In this document: positions 28,939 to 48,226 of the stretch, one piece after another | Position numbering within the stretch: the first letter of the stretch is position 1 | Layout: each line of letters begins with the position of its first letter | From: an uncultured Bacteroidales bacterium | Lineage (GTDB): Bacteria > Bacteroidota > Bacteroidia > Bacteroidales > VadinHA17 | NCBI GenBank assembly: GCA_963782945.1 | Contig: CAWALO010000015.1 | Location: forward strand, 71,239-135,238 | Reading direction: 5' to 3' | Length of the DNA stretch: 64,000 nucleotides | Translations under genes and position numbers: made by a program | Notes under the pieces: generated by a model | What the model was told of the DNA's origin: nothing | The model's database searches: none | The model's input: only the letters and a program-made list of their open reading frames with translations

Positions 28939-28946
28939 TATTTTTG
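28939..28946 (+). promoter_or_regulatory. carB -7 promoter box TATTTTTG (TAnnTTTG)
   Basis: Exact TAnnTTTG match 18 nt upstream of the carB ATG at 28964. Confidence 0.4.
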
Positions 28947-28963
28947 CACCTCAAACAGTTACG

Positions 28964-31900
28964 ATGAAAGAAGTTGTAAAGAAGGTGATAATCCTTGGAT
29001 CAGGTGCGCTAAAAATCGGGGAGGCCGGAGAGTTTGATTACTCAGGCTCACAAGCACTTAAAGCATTGAAAGAGGAGAATGTTGAAACAGTGCTTATTAA
29101 TCCCAATATCGCTACAGTTCAGACCTCTGAAGAGCTTGCTGACAAAATATATTTTCTTCCGGTCACCCCTTATTTTGTTGAAAAAGTTATTGCAAGGGAA
29201 AAACCTGATGGCATTCTTCTTTCATTCGGAGGCCAGACAGCTCTTAACTGTGGTACAGAACTGTTCAGGGCTGGCATCTTTGAAAAATATAATGTAAAGG
29301 TGCTTGGTACCCCCGTCTCAGCAATCATGGAAACAGAGGACCGGGAGCTGTTCGTGAAGAAACTCGATCAGATAAATGTCAGAACCCCAAGAAGTATTGC
29401 CGCTCTGGGAGTTGATGAAGCTATAGATGCTGCAGGCAAACTCGGGTTCCCTGTTATCATCCGGGCAGCTTATACACTCGGAGGACAGGGCAGCGGTTTT
29501 GCATCAGGCATTGATGAACTGAGAGCTCTTGCCGCCAGGGCATTCTCCTATTCAAATCAGATACTTGTAGAGGAATCTCTTAAAGGATGGAAAGAGGTTG
29601 AATATGAAGTTGTAAGAGACAGATTCGACAATTGCATCACAGTATGCAATATGGAAAATTTTGATCCTCTGGGTATTCATACAGGAGAAAGTATTGTGGT
29701 TGCTCCATCCCAGACCCTTACAAACAGTGAATATCATAAGCTTAGAGAACTGTCTATAAGGATTATCAGGCATATAGGCATTGTAGGGGAGTGTAATGTA
29801 CAGTATGCCCTGGCTCCCGATTCAGAGGATTACAGGGTGATAGAGGTTAATGCACGTCTTTCAAGGTCAAGTGCGCTTGCCTCAAAGGCAACTGGTTATC
29901 CGCTTGCATTTATTGCTGCAAAGCTTGGCATGGGATACGGACTCCATCAACTGAAAAATTCTGTAACAAAAAATACAACCGCATGCTTCGAACCGGCTCT
30001 TGATTATATTGTCTGTAAGATACCCCGCTGGGACCTGAATAAATTTGAGGGAGTTTCTCACCTCATCGGCAGCAGCATGAAAAGTGTTGGTGAGGTGATG
30101 GCAATAGGAAGGACATTCGAGGAGGCGATCCAGAAAGGATTGAGAATGATCGGTCAGGGGATGCATGGTTTCACGGGCAACCGCAACCTTGGCTTTGAAG
30201 ATGTTGAGAGGGAACTTTCCGAGCCTACCGATATGCGGATCTTTTCAATTACGGAGGCTCTGGATATGGGAATGGCTGTTGACCGGATCTATGAACTTAC
30301 CAAAATCGACAAATGGTTCCTGTACAAGCTCAGAAATATTATAGAGATAAAAAATAAGCTCTGTCATTTTAAGACGCTTGAGTCAATTCCTACTGATCTG
30401 CTCTCACACTCCAAGATCTATGGATTCAGTGATTTCCAGATTGCAAGGCATGTACTCAGATCGGATCCATCTGACATACATGATGATCTCATGAAGGTCA
30501 GGAGTTACCGTAAATCGCTGGGGATCGTTCCGTATATAAAACAAATTGATACCCTGGCTGCCGAATATCCGGCCGTTACAAATTATCTCTATCTTACTTA
30601 TAGTGGTTCAGAGCATGACATAATATGCGAAAACGATAAAAGATCTATTATCGTACTCGGCTCAGGGGCCTACAGGATAGGCTCAAGCGTTGAATTTGAC
30701 TGGTGCTCCGTCAATGCGATAGATACTATAAAAAAGGAGAAGTTCAGGTCAGTAATGATAAATTATAACCCTGAAACTGTAAGTACCGATTACGATATCT
30801 GCGACAGACTATATTTCGATGAGCTGACATTTGAAAGGGTTATGGATATTATTGACCTTGAGAATCCTGGCGGAGTTATTGTGTCAGTCGGCGGTCAGAT
30901 CCCCAACAACCTGGCTATGAGGCTGTATAATGAGAATGTTCCTGTTATGGGGACCTCTCCCATTTCTATTGACAGGGCAGAAAACAGACATAAGTTTTCA
31001 GCAATGCTCGATAATCTTGCTGTTGATCAGCCACGATGGAAAGAACTATCTTCAATTGATGATATTCATGAGTTTGTCGACCGTATCGGATTCCCGGTCC
31101 TGATCAGACCATCATATGTCTTATCCGGAGCTGCAATGAACGTTGTCTCAAATAAAAATGAGCTTACTCATTACCTTGAACTGGCAGCCCGGGTATCAAA
31201 ACAGTACCCTGTGGTAGTTTCAGAATTCATCGAAAATGCCAAGGAGATAGAGATCGATGCAGTGGCACGCGATGGTGATATGGTTGCCTATGCAATCAGT
31301 GAACATGTGGAGTTTGCCGGCGTACATTCCGGTGATGCTACAATGGTTTTCCCTGCTCAGAAAATATATTTTGAAACTTCCAGGCGCATAAAAAGAATTT
31401 CCCGTGAGATAGCAAAAGAACTCAATATTTCCGGTCCGTTCAATATTCAGTTTCTTGCAAAAGACAACGACATAAAAGTTATTGAATGCAACCTTCGCGC
31501 AAGCCGGAGCATGCCCTTTGTCTCAAAAGTTCTTAAATCAAACCTTATTGAGCTGGCGACAAAAGTAATGCTTGGCCTTCCAGCGGAAAAGCCATCCAAA
31601 ACAGTCTTCGAAATCGATTATGTAGGGGTTAAAGCTCCTCAGTTCAGCTTTTCAAGGCTCGCAAAAGCTGACCCGGTCCTTGGAGTTGATATGTCTTCCA
31701 CCGGTGAAGTCGGCTGTATAGGGGAAGGATTTTACGAAGCAATCCTTAAGGCAATGCTGTCTGTAGGTTACAGGGTGCCTAAAAAGAGCATCCTTCTGTC
31801 CACAGGGCCTGCACGGTCAAAAGTTGAACTGCTGAACAGCGCCAGGGCACTTCGTGAAAGAGGCCATAAGCTTTATGCCACCAGGGGAACACAGCAGTTC

Positions 31901-32185
31901 CTCGAAAATGCCGGAGTAGAAGCCCATGTGGCATACTGGCCGGATGAGAATCAATCTCCAAATACAATTGATCTCATCAAATCACGCGAAATAGATCTTG
32001 TGATCAACATTCCAAAAGATCTCAGTGCAACGGAACTCAATAATGACTATACAATAAGAAGAAGCGCAGTTGACTTCAATGTGCCGCTCATTACAAATGC
32101 AAGGCTGGCCAGTGCATATATACTCGCTTTCTGCAAACTCAGCATTGACGACCTTGCTATAAAGAGCTGGGATGAGTATAAGTAA
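28964..32185 (+). CDS. carB: Carbamoyl-phosphate synthase large subunit
   Basis: From MKEVVKKVIILGSGALKIGEAGEFDYSGSQA the length is 1,073 aa. The ATP-grasp halves are duplicated (a second ILGSGAYRIGSSVEFDW). The track's TTG start at 28925 is probably too far upstream. Confidence 0.95.
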   Translation: MKEVVKKVIILGSGALKIGEAGEFDYSGSQALKALKEENVETVLINPNIATVQTSEELADKIYFLPVTPYFVEKVIAREKPDGILLSFGGQTALNCGTELFRAGIFEKYNVKVLGTPVSAIMETEDRELFVKKLDQINVRTPRSIAALGVDEAIDAAGKLGFPVIIRAAYTLGGQGSGFASGIDELRALAARAFSYSNQILVEESLKGWKEVEYEVVRDRFDNCITVCNMENFDPLGIHTGESIVVAPSQTLTNSEYHKLRELSIRIIRHIGIVGECNVQYALAPDSEDYRVIEVNARLSRSSALASKATGYPLAFIAAKLGMGYGLHQLKNSVTKNTTACFEPALDYIVCKIPRWDLNKFEGVSHLIGSSMKSVGEVMAIGRTFEEAIQKGLRMIGQGMHGFTGNRNLGFEDVERELSEPTDMRIFSITEALDMGMAVDRIYELTKIDKWFLYKLRNIIEIKNKLCHFKTLESIPTDLLSHSKIYGFSDFQIARHVLRSDPSDIHDDLMKVRSYRKSLGIVPYIKQIDTLAAEYPAVTNYLYLTYSGSEHDIICENDKRSIIVLGSGAYRIGSSVEFDWCSVNAIDTIKKEKFRSVMINYNPETVSTDYDICDRLYFDELTFERVMDIIDLENPGGVIVSVGGQIPNNLAMRLYNENVPVMGTSPISIDRAENRHKFSAMLDNLAVDQPRWKELSSIDDIHEFVDRIGFPVLIRPSYVLSGAAMNVVSNKNELTHYLELAARVSKQYPVVVSEFIENAKEIEIDAVARDGDMVAYAISEHVEFAGVHSGDATMVFPAQKIYFETSRRIKRISREIAKELNISGPFNIQFLAKDNDIKVIECNLRASRSMPFVSKVLKSNLIELATKVMLGLPAEKPSKTVFEIDYVGVKAPQFSFSRLAKADPVLGVDMSSTGEVGCIGEGFYEAILKAMLSVGYRVPKKSILLSTGPARSKVELLNSARALRERGHKLYATRGTQQFLENAGVEAHVAYWPDENQSPNTIDLIKSREIDLVINIPKDLSATELNNDYTIRRSAVDFNVPLITNARLASAYILAFCKLSIDDLAIKSWDEYK

Positions 32186-32190
32186 AGAAA

Positions 32191-32306
32191 GGGAGAAGGG
32201 GAGAATGGGAGAATGGGAGAAAGGGAGAAGGGGAGAATGGGAGAATAGAGGACTGAGAGGGGAGAATGGGAGAAGGGGAGAATGGGAGAGGAGAATGAGA
32301 GGAGAA
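32191..32306 (+). repeat. Polypurine tandem array of the octamer N-GGGAGAA in strict 8-nt phase
   Basis: GGGAGAA starts at 32191, 32199, 32207, 32215, 32223, 32231 and 32239. A 13-nt break (tagaggactgaga) follows. The array resumes at 32260, 32268, 32276 and 32284 (the last is GGGAGAG), then a degenerate GAGAAT GAGAG GAGAAT tail. Spacer bases a,g,t,t,a,g,t imply a 32-nt higher-order unit. I counted 9 pyrimidines in 32186-32306. Confidence 0.9.
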
Positions 32307-32310
32307 TCGA

Positions 32311-32349
32311 AGCCGTGTTACTCCGTGAAAAACTCAGTGTAACTCAGTG
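32311..32349 (+). repeat. Heptamer module AGCCGTG / CTCCGTG / CTCAGTG / CTCAGTG
   Basis: Heptamers start at 32311, 32321, 32333 and 32343 (spacing 10, 12, 10), followed by gttaaaaag. Related modules occur at 7626-7699 and 42031-42058. Confidence 0.6.
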
Positions 32350-32380
32350 GTTAAAAAGAAACGAGAATAATTAAGACAAG

Positions 32381-32830
32381 ATGATAACCATCCGTAAAGC
32401 AACACCAAAGGACGCAGAAGTAATTATAGATTTTCAGCAGAAGATGGCATGGGAAACAGAAATGATGACTCTTGCGACAGATATTGTCACCAAAGGAGTT
32501 AATGCAGTATTCTCCAATACTGCTTTAGGACAGTATTGGGTCGCAGATGATGATGGTCAGGTTGTGGCCTCCCTGCTTATAACTTATGAATGGAGCGACT
32601 GGAGGAATGCAAATGTCTGGTGGTTTCAGTCAGTTTACGTCCTACCTTCACACAGAAGGTCAGGCATCTTCAGATCCATGTACATGCATATCAGAAATGA
32701 GGGCGAACTCACCGGAGTAGCCGGACTTCGTCTTTATGTTGAAACAAATAATACGAGAGCACATAAAACCTATGAAGCTCTAGGAATGAAGCGTGAGCAT
32801 TATGCAATGTATGAGTGGATGAAGGAATAA
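32381..32830 (+). CDS. GNAT family N-acetyltransferase
   Basis: 149 aa. The acetyl-CoA-binding-type segment VLPSHRRSGIFRSM is in the usual GNAT position. Confidence 0.8.
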   Translation: MITIRKATPKDAEVIIDFQQKMAWETEMMTLATDIVTKGVNAVFSNTALGQYWVADDDGQVVASLLITYEWSDWRNANVWWFQSVYVLPSHRRSGIFRSMYMHIRNEGELTGVAGLRLYVETNNTRAHKTYEALGMKREHYAMYEWMKE

Positions 32831-32833
32831 GCA

Positions 32834-33922
32834 ATGCATTGGCTGCCGGTTATACTGATACTGCCATATTTTTTTCTGATTCTGAAGATCTACAGGAATC
32901 TGCTGAAGATAATTCCTTTCAATGCCTCATCGGCTCCTTCAACATATGTCTCGGTTATAATTGCCTGCAGGAATGAGCAGGAGAAACTCCCGTTAATTCT
33001 TAAAAGCATTTCGGGGCAGGATTATCCCGAAGAGTTATTCGAAGTATTAATAGTTGATGATAATTCAACTGATAATACATTTGAAACAGCTTCAGAAAAT
33101 ATCAGTTCTGACAGATTCTTTGTATTGAAAAACAGAGGAGAGGGAAAGAAAGCTGCGATAAGAACCGGGATTCATGCTTCCGCAGGCAGGCTCATTATCA
33201 CTACAGATGCTGATTGCACAATGGGGAAAAGCTGGATAAAGATGATAGCAGCTTTTTATGAGAAGACAGATCCGGATATGATTATATGTCCTGTTCAGCT
33301 TGCAGAACATTGTGGATTTTTCTCAAGGTTTCAGGAGCTGGAATATTTGAGCCTGCAGGGTATCACAGCGGGAAGCGCAATTGCAGGTAACGGAATTATG
33401 TGCAATGGTGCTAATCTTGCCTTTACCAGGGAGGCCTATCTGAGGCAGATTGATAATCTGCATCAGGAGTTAGCCACCGGGGATGATGTTTTCATGCTGC
33501 ACAGTCTGAAAAAAGAAATTGAATCACGAATCATGTGGCTTGAATCAAATGATGCTGTTGTTTCAACTGCCCCTTCATCATCCGTATCTTCCTTTCTCCG
33601 CCAGAGAAAGAGGTGGATCTCCAAATGGAATGCCTACACAGACAAAACTACAATACTTGCCGGTATTGTGACATTTGCTGCAACACTGGTGCAGTTATAT
33701 GCTTTTATTTCTGTTTTCTTCAATATCTCTTTTATCTGGACCTTCCTGTCAGTGCTGATTATAAAATCTTCGGTTGATTTTCTGATTCTCCGGAATACAA
33801 CTTCGAGATATGGGAAAACACATCTGTTGTACTGGTTTATTCCGGCACAGCTTATATATCCTATTTATGTAATGGCTGTTATATTGTACTCCCTGATTCC
33901 TGTTTCAGACAAGGCTGGCTAA
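32834..33922 (+). CDS. Membrane-bound family 2 glycosyltransferase (processive-type motifs)
   Basis: N-terminal TM segment, VSVIIACRNE, DDNSTD, TDADC, the Q-x-x-RW-like QRKRW and C-terminal TM helices. Confidence 0.8.
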   Translation: MHWLPVILILPYFFLILKIYRNLLKIIPFNASSAPSTYVSVIIACRNEQEKLPLILKSISGQDYPEELFEVLIVDDNSTDNTFETASENISSDRFFVLKNRGEGKKAAIRTGIHASAGRLIITTDADCTMGKSWIKMIAAFYEKTDPDMIICPVQLAEHCGFFSRFQELEYLSLQGITAGSAIAGNGIMCNGANLAFTREAYLRQIDNLHQELATGDDVFMLHSLKKEIESRIMWLESNDAVVSTAPSSSVSSFLRQRKRWISKWNAYTDKTTILAGIVTFAATLVQLYAFISVFFNISFIWTFLSVLIIKSSVDFLILRNTTSRYGKTHLLYWFIPAQLIYPIYVMAVILYSLIPVSDKAG

Positions 33923-41936: not shown

Positions 41937-41961
41937 AATTTCTTATTATTTATTTTTACAT

Positions 41962-42058
41962 CCCCCCTGATTTCGCTAAAGCTTCAGCAGGCAAAGCTGG
42001 CCCCCTTCAAAGGGGGAATCAAGAACATTTCTCAGTGTCTCTCTGTGCATCCTCTGTG
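41962..42058. repeat. Composite repeat block in the thyA-folA spacer: C6, an internal hairpin, C5-ttcaaa-G5, then three CTCNGTG heptamers
   Basis: C6 at 41962-41967. CCCCC ttcaaa GGGGG at 42001-42016. CTCAGTG at 42031, CTCTGTG at 42041 and CTCTGTG at 42052. A pyrimidine tract at 42059-42094 is the complement of GGAGAA-rich purines. Confidence 0.6.
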
Positions 42059-42094
42059 TTTTATTCTTCTACTTTCGCCTTTCTCCTTTTTCCT

Positions 42095-48110: not shown

Positions 48111-48139
48111 AGATAATAATCCCTTCTATGAGAGCTTTA

Positions 48140-48216
48140 CCCCCCCATCCCCCCAAGGGGGGGCTAAATTATGCTTCATAATTGCTTTTATACCCCTCTT
48201 CAGGGGGGCAGGGGGG
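48140..48216. repeat. 77-nt nested inverted-repeat element built from C and G homopolymer runs
   Basis: The order is C7 at C6 aa G7, then ctaa ATTATG ctt CATAAT tgcttttata, then C4 tcttca G6 ca G6. The outer C-runs complement the outer G-runs, the inner G7 complements C4, and the centre is a 6-bp palindrome. It ends 10 nt before the next gene's ATG. Confidence 0.65.
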
Positions 48217-48226
48217 CAATAAAAAT

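What the first reader, a model, noticed from the sequence alone, without database searches (positions are those of the whole stretch)
32186..32310. 121-nt polypurine array of the phased octamer N-GGGAGAA between carB and a GNAT-GT2 gene pair
Right after the carB stop the + strand becomes almost pure purine (9 pyrimidines in 32186-32306 by my count). It consists of 10 perfect and 1 variant GGGAGAA cores in exact 8-nt register, in two blocks (7 and 4 copies) separated by 13 nt. A 32-nt higher-order periodicity appears in the spacer base (a,g,t,t / a,g,t,t). It is not coding: no start, and the sequence is too low in complexity. I see four non-exclusive possibilities. (a) A slippage-prone VNTR changing promoter or UTR geometry of the downstream acetyltransferase/glycosyltransferase pair, giving phase variation of a surface glycan. 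(b) An H-DNA/triplex-forming purine-pyrimidine tract. (c) As RNA, an array of at least 11 GGAG/GGA motifs acting as a sponge or standby platform for ribosomes or an RNA-binding protein. That would be notable where SD pairing is normally avoided. (d) Part of a composite repeat with the heptamer module directly downstream, since a GGAGAA-rich tract also flanks the heptamers at 42059-42094.
Basis: partly seen in the sequence, partly recalled or inferred. Interest (0 to 1): 0.6.

Follow-up and report, generated by a model that had tools for sequence, protein, structure and literature searches.

The report
Hypervariable purine octamer repeat after carB
The purine tract is real and is a fast-changing non-coding tandem repeat (8-base unit) filling the gap between carB and the next gene in an uncultured Bacteroidales bacterium, one of a known but poorly understood class of bacterial intergenic repeats, with no sign of a sequence-specific function.

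Summary
Window 32186-32306 is 121 nt with 9 pyrimidines and carries 10 perfect GGGAGAA cores in 8-nt phase (7 + 3, then degenerate copies), starting right after the carB stop codon.

It is a long simple-sequence repeat (VNTR-like) inside a mosaic spacer. In 64 orthologous carB-GNAT spacers of at least 25 nt (window included) from related Bacteroidales, 42 carry tandem arrays of 6-8-nt units that mostly start 1-6 nt after the carB stop. The unit differs between relatives (GGGAGAAN, GAGACTGA, AAGACAA, AGGCGAC, AGGTTA). Perfect GGGAGAA cores range from 0 to 10, and the window has the most. Some relatives have a 7-nt spacer (AGACAAT). Others show 8-nt-phased clines from GGGAGAAN to the pre-ATG AAGACAAT, which points to birth and growth by slippage.

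The same building blocks recur at other loci, including thyA-folA in this window. Contigs encoding identical proteins differ by repeat indels.

- **Phase variation of a glycan:** not supported.
- **H-DNA:** not supported.
- **Ribosome or protein sponge:** not supported.
- **G-quadruplex:** the array is the window's only canonical motif, but only 9 of 71 orthologous spacers have one.

Verdict: new member of a known kind, of modest interest.

The parts
28964..32185 (+). carB (carbamoyl-phosphate synthase large subunit), stop TAA at 32183-32185. A Bacteroidetes-type -7 motif (TATTTTTG) lies at 28939-28946.
   Evidence: Pfam CPSase_L_D1/D2/D3 and MGS domains; ORF list; TANNTTTG scan.
32186..32306 (+). 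The whole polypurine tract: 121 nt, 9 pyrimidines, purine-rich on the sense strand of carB.
   Evidence: It is the only stretch of the window with at least 87.5% purine per 40 nt on the + strand.
32190..32245 (+). Block 1: 7 units of N+GGGAGAA with spacer bases A,G,T,T,A,G,T. It is close to two copies of a 32-nt higher-order unit (32190-32221 and 32222-32253, identical for 27 nt).
32246..32259 (+). Interruption TAGAGGACTGAGAG. It looks like a relic of the GAGACTGA-type octamer that forms long arrays in relatives (L007, L208), and it shifts the register by 5 nt.
32260..32306 (+). Block 2: 3 perfect GGGAGAA (32260, 32268, 32276), a truncated GGGAGA (32284-32289), and a degenerate tail GGAGAATGAGAGGAGAA.
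32191..32282 (+). Canonical G-quadruplex motif region (G3-4 tracts with 4-5-nt loops). All 7 canonical G3+N1-7 motif starts of the 64-kb window fall here.
   Evidence: G4Hunter maximum 1.80. Folding that allows quadruplexes gives -41.3 kcal/mol with two three-tetrad quadruplexes, against -28.6 without.
32315..32357 (+). Heptamer-core module GTGTTACTCCGTGAAAAACTCAGTGTAACTCAGTGGTTAAAAA (CTCCGTG at 32322, CTCAGTG at 32333 and 32343). It is conserved in relatives and present at another locus.
   Evidence: CTCNGTGGTTAA occurs in L002, L059, L068, L207, L208 and L108. L108 has 6 copies of ACTCCGTGAAA followed by ACTCCGTGGTTAAA.
32373..32380 (+). AAGACAAG directly before the GNAT ATG. This is the native pre-start sequence, and it matches the 7-nt minimal spacer AGACAAT of L040 and the last unit of the 8-nt-phased arrays in L066, L025 and L073.
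32381..33922 (+). GNAT acetyltransferase (32381-32830) and GT2 glycosyltransferase (32834-33922), 3 nt apart. They are probably co-transcribed with carB.
   Evidence: Pfam and NCBIfam, which found no specific equivalog. No TANNTTTG motif lies between 31567 and 33076. No sigma-70-like + strand promoter or terminator lies in the spacer.
41937..42094 (-). Second mosaic spacer of the same kind (thyA stop to folA ATG). It is purine-rich on the sense strand (AGGAAAAAGGAGAAAGGCGAAAG...), followed by CACAGAG-type repeats and then a CCCCCTTTGAAGGGGG hairpin.
   Evidence: Orthologous spacers carry (GTCGGAA)n, (GAGACCA)n, (AGGATAA)n and (GGGAGAAT)3.

Best explanation
**What it is.** The tract is a non-coding, hypervariable long simple-sequence repeat (8-nt unit, VNTR-like). 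It makes up most of the intercistronic spacer, or 3' UTR, between carB and the GNAT-GT2 pair in an uncultured Bacteroidales genome.

**How it arose (inferred).** Slipped-strand mispairing, or unequal exchange, acted on the short native spacer (about 7-8 nt, AGACAAT) between the carB stop and the GNAT start. Units then drifted and were re-homogenised, giving clines from GGGAGAAN through GGGAGACN and RAGAGACN to AAGACAAN. In this genome the GGGAGAAN end was recently amplified in 32-nt blocks.

**Why it has these properties (inferred).**
- The purine bias on the sense strand is inherited from the A/G-rich seed sequences next to the stop and start codons.
- Persistence at the same site follows from arrays perpetuating themselves once they exist.
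- The same building blocks (purine octamers, CACNGAG/CTCNGTG heptamer-core repeats, C-run/G-run hairpins) occur in a few other spacers of these genomes, so it belongs to a mosaic repeat family.

**What it does (inferred).** It is most likely transcribed with carB as an unstructured spacer, and the exact sequence has little or no specific function. Copy number may change spacer length without an on/off effect.

**Shown versus inferred.** Shown: the anatomy, the hypervariability, unit turnover at an orthologous site, the recurrence of modules, the lack of RNA structure, and the lack of coding potential and of promoter and terminator motifs. Inferred: the slippage mechanism, co-transcription, and near-neutrality.
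For: **Anatomy.**

**Host and gene order.** GNAT homologues of 86-92% identity are named Bacteroidales, and argR-carB-GNAT-GT2-recQ-tatC synteny is conserved.

**Orthologous spacers.**
- 42 of 64 orthologous spacers of at least 25 nt carry at least one array of period 5-12. Most of the leading arrays start at nt 1-6 after the carB stop.
- Units differ between relatives.
- Perfect GGGAGAA counts are 10 (window, the maximum), 7, 5, 3, 2, 2, 1, 0.
- Spacer length ranges from 0 to 309 nt.

**Signs of origin by slippage.**
- L040 has a minimal 7-nt spacer, AGACAAT. L017 reads (AGACAAA)2 AGGAACA AGACAAT. L066, L025, L073, L208 and L108 show 8-nt-phased clines.
- Block 1 of the window is a 32-nt higher-order duplication.

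**Recent indels between contigs encoding identical proteins.**
- L205 and L206 have 2 versus 3 copies of CAATATATTT.
- L213/L214 and L215 differ by a 68-nt block.
- Short-read contigs of the closest relatives break at this spacer.

**Mosaic at other loci.** L108, L103 and the thyA-folA spacers.

**No structure, family or signals.**
- The sense RNA is less structured than shuffles (z = +2.15).
- There are no inverted repeats.
- There is no Rfam match.
- No + strand promoter-like site or terminator lies in the spacer.

**Not a unique unit.** Other purine octamer arrays occur at a similar order of magnitude in viral contigs: 6 hits against 2, 2 and 2.

**Known class.** Intergenic tandem repeats with 5-11-nt units, and assemblages of heptamer repeats in Bacteroidetes spacers, are described in PMC4679880 (summarising Mrazek 2007).
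Against: - Two thirds of orthologous spacers keep arrays across deep divergence (GNAT identity down to 67%). Only 1-2 of the other 16 co-directional spacers in the window have them. This could reflect selection rather than self-perpetuation.
- The purine strand follows transcription at both window loci. carB is on the + strand and thyA-folA on the - strand, and there is no skew switch between them. More broadly the count is 13 sense to 5 antisense. A neutral model explains this only through the seed argument.
- A 16-nt identity (GTGTTACTCCGTGAAA) between the window spacer and L108, a different locus in another genome, needs inter-locus spread, which local slippage does not explain.
- The array is the only canonical G-quadruplex motif in 64 kb and begins 5 nt after a stop codon, so an effect on carB termination or mRNA decay cannot be excluded.
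- No read-level or expression data were available.
Confidence: 0.68

Rival explanations
1. **Tunable regulatory VNTR.** Array length or sequence sets expression within the carB-GNAT-GT2 transcript. It could change polarity or decoupling of translation, 3'-end decay of carB mRNA, or translation of GNAT-GT2. This would act as an evolvable rheostat or phase switch, which is the first reader's option (a).
For: - Copy number is highly variable.
- Arrays persist at this spacer in 42 of 64 relatives, while most other spacers in the window lack them.
- Minimal spacers of 0-7 nt in some relatives (L047, L082, L040) suggest ancestral translational coupling that expansions would break.
- In Bacteroidia, initiation depends on mRNA structure and upstream A residues (PMC6847099), and a purine tract is structure-free.
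Against: - The array ends 74 nt before the GNAT ATG, and the conserved pre-ATG sequence is outside it.
- No promoter motif lies in the spacer whose geometry could change.
- The same composites sit between convergent genes with no downstream gene (L108, L112, L158).
- The GNAT-GT2 pair is syntenic and conserved like housekeeping genes, unlike contingency loci.
- NCBIfam gives no surface-antigen assignment.
Confidence: 0.14
2. **Non-B nucleic-acid structure element.** The G3-4 tracts would form G-quadruplexes in the mRNA or on the non-template DNA strand, possibly with an R-loop because purine RNA binds pyrimidine DNA strongly. This would happen directly after the carB stop. It could pause ribosomes or RNA polymerase, in the way REP hairpins close to stop codons are reported to act. 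Alternatively the C-rich, G-poor antisense transcript could load Rho and block antisense transcription into carB.
For: - All 7 canonical G-quadruplex motif starts of the window lie in the array. G4Hunter reaches 1.80, and folding that allows quadruplexes gains about 13 kcal/mol.
- The array starts 5 nt after the stop codon.
- The antisense strand is (TTCTCCCN)n, with many C and almost no G (sequence).
- G exceeds C on the sense strand in the first 40 nt of orthologous spacers (G 0.324, C 0.151).
Against: - Only 9 of 71 orthologous spacers have a canonical motif, and most units (AGGTTA, AAGACAA, GAGACTGA) cannot form quadruplexes.
- H-DNA is unlikely because mirror symmetry is absent.
- There is no experimental or transcript-end evidence.
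- The REP and Rho analogies rest on my own knowledge, not on a test here.
Confidence: 0.08
3. **Binding platform or sponge.** The transcribed array of GGGAG/GGA motifs would titrate ribosomes through the anti-Shine-Dalgarno tail, especially ribosomes lacking bS21, or an RNA-binding protein.
For: - There are eleven or more GGAG/GGA motifs in single-stranded context.
- AGAAAGGG would pair with a 16S 3' tail ending CCUCCUUUCU. This is my own knowledge, and the 16S gene is not in the window.
- Ribosomes lacking bS21 regain Shine-Dalgarno recognition in Flavobacterium (PMC9976891).
Against: [quoted passage not shown]
- Orthologous spacers replace the unit with sequences lacking GGA or GGAG.
- There is no own promoter or terminator and no hairpin-presented motifs as in CsrB/RsmZ.
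- There is no Rfam family.
Confidence: 0.04
4. **Mobile or gene-converted composite element.** The purine array, GAGACTNA array and ACTCNGTG...GGTTAA module would travel together as a MITE- or BIME-like unit between 3' ends of genes. This does not exclude internal slippage.
For: - The same module order and a shared GTGTTACTCCGTGAAA...GTGGTTAAA end occur in L108, at a different locus between convergent genes.
- GGGAGAAT arrays occur next to CACAGAG modules in thyA-folA spacers.
- An IS200-type Y1 transposase lies next to the locus in one relative.
Against: - No terminal inverted repeats or target-site duplications were seen.
- Module order differs at thyA-folA.
- The 8-nt-phased clines that run into the native pre-ATG sequence argue for growth in place.
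- Only one full composite is present in the 64-kb window.
Confidence: 0.06

Closest known systems
Long simple sequence repeats (LSSRs) with 5-11-nt units in prokaryotic genomes (Mrazek, Guo and Shah 2007, as summarised in PMC4679880)
   Same: Tandem direct repeats of a 5-11-nt unit, far longer than chance. They are non-coding and intergenic, sporadic across phyla, attributed to polymerase slippage, and of unknown function.
   Different: The survey found 7-nt units most common, while this unit is 8 nt. Shown here for the first time, as far as I could find: persistence at one orthologous spacer across about 60 relatives with turnover of the unit, 8-nt-phased clines, and a mosaic with other modules.
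Intergenic heptamer direct repeats: TAACTGA repeats of Beggiatoaceae, Cyanobacteria and Bacteroidetes (MacGregor 2015, PMC4679880) and cyanobacterial STRR heptamers
   Same: Short-unit tandem arrays in intergenic regions, often mixed assemblages of several units. Indels come in unit increments between close strains. They are present in some Bacteroidetes, are absent from close relatives' orthologous spacers, and cause assembly breaks.
   Different: The unit sequence and length differ. TAACTGA sets in the Beggiatoaceae genome are short (2-6 copies) and lie just upstream of start codons. This array abuts the upstream stop codon and ends 74 nt before the next start.
SSR-mediated phase-variable contingency loci (for example heptanucleotide repeats at Haemophilus hmw1A, PMC8262952)
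   Same: Slippage-prone repeats whose copy number changes.
   Different: Those repeats sit inside ORFs, within promoters or in 5' UTRs of surface or virulence genes of host-adapted pathogens, and they switch expression. Here no promoter is involved and the flanking genes are conserved and syntenic. The organism is known only from metagenomes. Similar arrays lie where there is no downstream gene.
REP/BIME mosaic elements of enterobacteria (own knowledge)
   Same: Intergenic and transcribed, lying just after stop codons or between cistrons. They are built as mosaics of a few short modules, dispersed over many loci, and variable between strains.
   Different: REPs are imperfect palindromes of about 35 nt that form hairpins. 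This array has no inverted repeat and is predicted to be unstructured. No RAYT association was shown.
G-quadruplex-forming sequences
   Same: The array meets the canonical motif (G3+ N1-7) x4 several times over.
   Different: The motif is a by-product of one unit variant and is not conserved at the site: 9 of 71 orthologous spacers have it. Folding was not tested.

Membership tests
Long simple sequence repeat (5-11-nt unit) | Head-to-tail repeats of a 5-11-nt unit, longer than expected by chance | tested here: met
   10 perfect and about 3 degenerate 8-nt units. TRF score 107-131. Only 12 scattered GGGAGAA elsewhere in the window, and shuffles give about 11 in total. Spacings are 8 throughout except one of 13.
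Long simple sequence repeat (5-11-nt unit) | Non-coding location | tested here: met
   Lies between the carB stop (32185) and the GNAT ATG (32381). The overlapping 56-aa ORF has no Pfam hit. Orthologous arrays have units of 6, 7 or 8 nt.
VNTR / slippage-prone repeat | Copy number differs between related genomes, and indels come in whole units | tested here: met
   Perfect cores range from 10 down to 0 across relatives. Contigs with identical GNAT differ by one 10-nt unit. Contigs with identical DHFR differ by a 68-nt block. Within-population variation of the GGGAGAAN array itself was not testable, as no reads were available.
Phase-variable contingency locus | Repeat lies inside an ORF, in a promoter spacer or in the 5' UTR, so that unit changes switch a gene on or off | tested here: not met
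   Not in an ORF. No sigma-70-like + strand site and no Bacteroidetes TAnnTTTG motif lies in the spacer. The array ends 74 nt before the ATG. The promoter scans are consensus-only, so this is weak negative evidence.
Phase-variable contingency locus | Controls a surface or host-interaction determinant | tested here: inconclusive
   GT2 and GNAT have only generic family matches. Synteny with carB and recQ was conserved in the four relatives examined.
Intramolecular triplex (H-DNA) former | Homopurine-homopyrimidine tract | tested here: met
   112 of 121 bases are purines.
Intramolecular triplex (H-DNA) former | Mirror-repeat symmetry of the tract | tested here: not met
   The longest perfect mirror arm is 5 nt, and the best arm identity is 0.64.
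G-quadruplex motif | Four or more G3+ tracts with loops of 1-7 nt | tested here: met
   7 overlapping canonical motif starts, all within 32191-32260. G4Hunter reaches 1.80.
G-quadruplex motif | Actual quadruplex folding in vitro or in vivo | not testable with these tools
   Only the ViennaRNA prediction that allows quadruplexes is available (-41.3 against -28.6 kcal/mol).
CsrB/RsmZ-type sponge sRNA | Independent transcript with GGA motifs presented in hairpin loops | tested here: not met
   No promoter or terminator. The fold is weaker than shuffles, with no hairpins in the array. No Rfam hit. Transcript ends were not testable.
REP/BIME-type mosaic element | Unit is an imperfect palindrome forming a stem-loop | tested here: not met
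   No inverted repeats in 32150-32400.
REP/BIME-type mosaic element | Dispersed mosaic of a few modules in post-stop or intercistronic spacers | tested here: met
   The same modules occur at the carB spacer in relatives, at L108 and L103, and at thyA-folA spacers.
Cyanobacterial STRR / TAACTGA heptamer repeats | 7-nt unit of the defined sequences | tested here: not met
   The unit is the 8-nt GGGAGAAN. This is an analogy only.

The most novel reading that the evidence does not exclude
Selection, not inertia, keeps tandem arrays at particular post-stop spacers in this Bacteroidales lineage. On this reading, sense-strand purine or G-rich short-unit arrays that abut stop codons would be tunable cis elements. 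They could form an RNA G-quadruplex or a structure-free tract that sets ribosome termination or stalling, mRNA 3'-end decay or operon polarity for carB relative to GNAT-GT2. Alternatively they could act as a one-way Rho loading site for antisense RNA. Copy number would serve as an evolvable rheostat, and the modules would spread between loci.
Probability: 0.12. Interest if true: 0.65.

Novelty: new member of a known kind. Interest (0 to 1): 0.33.

Why it matters
Short-unit intergenic tandem repeats have been catalogued in bacteria since 1990-2007, but their function is still unknown.

This locus offers an unusually clean natural series. It is one orthologous spacer with conserved flanking genes, sampled in about 70 relatives. 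The series runs from a 0-7-nt spacer to 309 nt, and it shows visible birth, unit drift and block amplification. That makes it a good model for measuring repeat birth and death rates, and for testing whether such arrays are neutral or tune operon expression in Bacteroidia, which lack Shine-Dalgarno-based initiation.

There is also a practical point. These arrays break short-read assemblies and can be mis-sized, which matters for the quality of metagenome-assembled genomes.

If the array is only slippage debris, as I think most likely, the finding is ordinary.

Tried and rejected
- **Known RNA family:** rejected. Rfam gathering scan of the whole window and an E-value scan of 32100-32450 gave nothing relevant.
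- **Coding small ORF (32172-32342):** rejected. It has no Pfam hit, the 8-nt unit is not a multiple of 3, and orthologues have 6-, 7- and 8-nt units.
- **H-DNA:** rejected for lack of mirror symmetry.
- **Own promoter or terminator in the spacer:** none on the + strand.
- **Exact-protein look-up of the window's GNAT:** not on record, so no second assembly of the same strain could be compared.
- **'Arrays always abut stop codons on the purine strand' across phyla:** only a trend. Counts were 12 versus 4, with 48 of 69 regions having neither (p = 0.077). In low-GC loci the orientation count was 13 to 5. I do not claim it.
- **'GGGAGAA is a special unit':** viral-contig controls gave 6 hits against 2, 2 and 2 for the mirror and two permuted units. 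This is a mild excess at best on tiny numbers.
- **Conservation of G-quadruplex potential at the site:** rejected, 9 of 71 spacers.
- **Literature search for GGGAGAA repeats:** found nothing bacterial. The Mrazek 2007 paper is not held and is cited only through PMC4679880.
Full report
**1. Observation**

The tract is real. Window 32186-32306 (+) is 121 nt with 9 pyrimidines. GGGAGAA occurs ten times on the + strand. Seven copies lie at exact 8-nt steps from 32191 to 32245 and three from 32260 to 32282. A truncated GGGAGA and two GGAGAA follow.

The other 12 copies in the 64 kb are scattered over both strands, and shuffles give about 11 in total. Tandem Repeats Finder reports periods 8, 16 and 24 with scores of 107-131. 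The repeat finder shows start-to-start spacings of 8 throughout except one of 13, and no inverted repeats.

The spacer bases read A,G,T,T,A,G,T,T, so block 1 is essentially a duplicated 32-nt higher-order unit.

The interruption (TAGAGGACTGAGAG, 32246-32259) is 14 nt and shifts the register by 5. An ATG-initiated 56-aa ORF (32172-32342) does run through the array, but nothing suggests it is a gene (and section 3 below).

**2. Setting**

- The upstream gene is carB, with its stop at 32183-32185. Downstream lie a 149-aa GNAT (ATG at 32381) and, 3 nt later, a GT2 glycosyltransferase.
- Further genes are recQ (-), tatC (+) and, upstream, argR, argG and argH (-).
- The closest GNAT homologues (86-92% identity) come from metagenomes and from assembled genomes named Bacteroidales.
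- The order argR-carB-GNAT-GT2-recQ-tatC is conserved in relatives.
- The Bacteroidetes -7 motif TAnnTTTG sits in front of carB (28939) and of many other genes in the window, but is absent between 31567 and 33076.
- The generic scan finds no + strand promoter-like site or terminator in the spacer.

I therefore infer that GNAT-GT2 is read through from carB and that the array is an intercistronic spacer or 3' UTR. This is an inference and was not shown.

**3. Comparative evidence at the same site**

I collected the orthologous spacer from about 70 relatives and extracted the sequence from the carB stop to the GNAT ATG.

- Spacer length ranges from 0 to 309 nt.
- Of 64 spacers of at least 25 nt (window included), 42 carry at least one tandem array with a 5-12-nt unit. 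Most of the leading arrays start at nt 1-6 after the carB stop.
- The unit is not conserved:
  - GGGAGAAN in the window, L003, L006, L019, L065 and L066.
  - GAGACTGA in L005, L208 and L007 (at least 20 copies).
  - AAGACAA or AAGGCAA in many loci.
  - AGGCGAC in L014 and L029.
  - AGGTTA/G in L023, L026, L032 and L036.
  - GACCGCAA next to the GNAT start in L014 and L070.
- Perfect GGGAGAA cores number 10 in the window (the maximum seen), 7 in L003, 5 in L006, 3 in L019, 2 in L208 and L205, 1 in L002 and 0 in L004, whose GNAT is among the most similar to the window's (91% identical).
- The first 40 nt after the stop are A 0.385, G 0.324, C 0.151 and T 0.140. That is 71% purine, against 53% in carB itself.

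**4. Origin**

Some relatives have a minimal spacer, for example L040 with AGACAAT (7 nt). L017 reads AGACAAA AGACAAA AGGAACA AGACAAT, a small array of that same sequence.

In L066 the entire 70-nt spacer is one 8-nt-phased array: GGGAGAGG GGGAGAGG GGGAGAAT AGGAGACT GAAAGACC GCAAGACC ACAAGACA ATAAGACA AT|ATG. L025, L073, L208 and L108 show the same cline from GGGAGAAN through GGGAGACN and RAGAGACN to AAGACMNN. The window ends with AAGACAAG|ATG.

The simplest reading has three parts:
- The spacer grew by tandem duplication of the native A/G-rich sequence between the stop and start codons.
- Units then drifted and were re-homogenised.
- In this genome the GGGAGAAN end was recently amplified in 32-nt blocks.

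This also gives a neutral explanation for the purine bias on the sense strand.

**5. Ongoing instability**

- L205 and L206 encode the identical GNAT but have 2 versus 3 copies of a 10-nt unit in this spacer.
- L213/L214 and L215 encode the identical DHFR but differ by a 68-nt repeat block in the thyA-folA spacer.
- Short-read contigs of the closest relatives end inside the spacer (L204, L206, L207). This is what tandem repeats do to assemblies.
- The exact copy number in the window therefore deserves a read-level check. Independent assemblies, including contigs of several hundred kb, show arrays at this site, so the feature is not an artefact.

**6. A mosaic family, not an isolated array**

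- L208 (GNAT 89% identical) has (GGGAGAAN)4, (GAGACTGA)5, two longer units, then AACTCCGTGAAAAACTTCGTGTAACTCAGTGGTTAAG before the ATG.
- The window has the same heptamer-core module at 32315-32357 and a GAGACTGA relic in the interruption.
- L108 is a different locus in the same assembled genome as L003. There, between convergent genes and starting 9 nt after a TGA, the order is (GGGAGAAT) about 10 times, (GAGACNAA) about 8 times, (ACTCCGTGAAA) 6 times, then ACTCCGTGGTTAAA. It shares GTGTTACTCCGTGAAA with the window.
- L103 has (GGGAGATG/GGGAGAAT), then about 22 copies of GAGACTAA/GAGAATTA, then (CCAGCAA) about 8 times, then the ATG.
- In the window, the thyA-folA spacer (41937-42094, - strand) has a purine-rich tract, CACAGAG repeats and a C5/G5 hairpin. 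Its orthologues carry (GTCGGAA) about 23 times plus (GAGACCA) about 10 times, (AGGATAA) 4 times, or a CACAGAG module followed by (GGGAGAAT)3.

The module order is not fixed, since it differs at thyA-folA. I saw no terminal inverted repeats or target duplications. The 16-nt identity between loci is not explained by local slippage and remains open.

**7. Strand and position rules**

Both window examples are purine-rich on the sense strand although they lie on opposite DNA strands, and cumulative GC skew shows no switch between them.

In low-GC loci, strongly skewed arrays between co-directional genes are 13 sense to 5 antisense.

Across phyla, an ORF of at least 100 codons ends within 30 nt on the purine-strand side in 12 regions and on the other side in 4. 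Five regions have both and 48 have neither (p = 0.077). These are trends only.

**8. Distribution of the unit**

The hosts include many Bacteroidales, Planctomycetota, Acidobacteriota, Gemmatimonadota, Chloroflexota, cyanobacteria, actinobacteria and a Helicobacter.

Many of these arrays adjoin other 7-8-nt arrays or are followed by their own reverse complement, which would form long hairpins (L101, L127, L147, L150). The window array has no such partner.

In viral contigs the unit gives 6 hits, against 2 each for its mirror image and two permutations. The unit is at most mildly favoured, and the class is generic.

**9. Structure and function tests**

- The sense RNA of 32150-32420 folds worse than shuffles (-28.6 against -35.7 kcal/mol, z = +2.15). 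The antisense RNA is unremarkable (z = 0.26). The tract is therefore intrinsically unstructured in Watson-Crick terms.
- It is the only canonical G-quadruplex motif in the window. All 7 motif starts fall in it, G4Hunter reaches 1.80, and folding that allows quadruplexes gives -41.3 kcal/mol with two quadruplexes.
- Only 9 of 71 orthologous spacers have such a motif, so quadruplex potential is not what is conserved at the site.
- Mirror symmetry is poor, with a longest perfect arm of 5 nt, so H-DNA is unlikely.
- A GGAG or ribosome sponge is unlikely for two reasons. Bacteroidia ribosomes sequester the anti-Shine-Dalgarno tail (PMC7797042, PMC9976891), and orthologous units lack GGAG.
- There is no Rfam match.

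**10. Comparison with what is known**

The feature fits the class of long simple sequence repeats with 5-11-nt units. These are scattered across phyla, intergenic and attributed to polymerase slippage (Mrazek 2007, as summarised in PMC4679880). It also resembles the heptamer repeat assemblages reported in cyanobacteria and some Bacteroidetes. That paper likewise notes indels in unit increments, absence from close relatives' orthologous spacers, and contig breaks (PMC4679880).

It works least like a contingency locus. It resembles REP/BIME elements in position and mosaic build, but not in structure.

**11. Verdict**

This is a real, hypervariable, non-coding 8-nt tandem repeat. It is a new member of a known kind and most probably a product of slippage with little sequence-specific function (confidence about 0.68).

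The points worth keeping are the clean comparative series at one orthologous spacer, the mosaic recurrence at other loci, and the unexplained sense-strand purine bias and inter-locus identity. Interest is about 0.33.

Noticed in passing
window 41937-42094 (- strand, thyA stop to folA ATG): Second mosaic spacer. It has a sense-strand purine-rich tract (AGGAAAAAGGAGAAAGGCGAAAG...), three CACAGAG-type repeats and a CCCCCTTTGAAGGGGG hairpin. Orthologues carry long arrays of other 7-8-nt units, including (GGGAGAAT)3.
   Followed up: yes
window 48111-48226: The intergenic spacer holds two C-run/G-run hairpins (CCCCCCCATCCCCCCAAGGGGGGG and CCCCTCTTCAGGGGGGCAGGGGGG). The same family, TTAGCCCCCCTTTAGGGGGGTTGGGGGGCAAAA, appears in many relatives' carB-GNAT spacers (L026, L035, L049, L053, L055). 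It may be a dispersed terminator-like or REP-like element.
   Followed up: partly
L213/L214 1-1200 versus L215 1-1200 (thyA-folA spacer): Contigs from three samples encode the identical DHFR, but their spacers are 234, 234 and 166 nt. They differ by a 68-nt duplication of the CACAGAG module, which is a population-level length polymorphism.
   Followed up: yes
L205 100-154 versus L206 1-56: Two samples with the identical GNAT protein have 2 versus 3 copies of CAATATATTT just upstream of the GNAT start.
   Followed up: yes
L032, L072, L076 (carB-GNAT spacers): Arrays of CACAGAG-core units are followed by arrays of the complementary CTCTGTG-core units. These would fold into long segmented hairpins. 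The window carries only the CTCNGTG half at carB and only the CACAGAG half at thyA-folA.
   Followed up: no
L101, L127, L145, L147, L150 (various phyla): GGGAGAAN arrays are followed within about 10-50 nt by their reverse complement (TTCTCCC arrays), giving potential hairpins of about 30 bp just after stop codons. The window array has no such partner.
   Followed up: partly
L123 and L143 (contigs labelled Metamycoplasmataceae): There are 7-8 separate GGGAGAAN arrays per 8 kb, and one strand is free of stop codons for about 7.8 kb. This looks like satellite DNA or a contaminant rather than a bacterial locus.
   Followed up: no
locus of P0009 (no DNA returned): In one relative an IS200-type Y1 transposase gene (PF01797) is inserted between GT2 and recQ, next to the repeat-bearing spacer.
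   Followed up: no
L204, L206, L207 (contig ends): Short-read contigs of the closest relatives end 42-108 nt upstream of the GNAT start, inside the repeat spacer. The repeats break assemblies, so the copy number in any assembly, including the window, may be inexact.
   Followed up: partly
window 32186-32193 and 32218-32225: AGAAAGGG would pair (7 Watson-Crick pairs plus 1 G-U) with a 16S rRNA 3' tail ending CCUCCUUUCU. This rests on my own knowledge of typical 16S tails. The 16S gene is not in the window, so it is untested.
   Followed up: no
L209 931-1200 and L210 about 990-1200: Two Bacteroidales assembled genomes share (GTCGGAA/GTCCGAA/GACAGAA)n followed by (GAGACCA)n after thyA, but with clearly different copy numbers (about 23 versus about 14 of the first unit).
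   Followed up: partly
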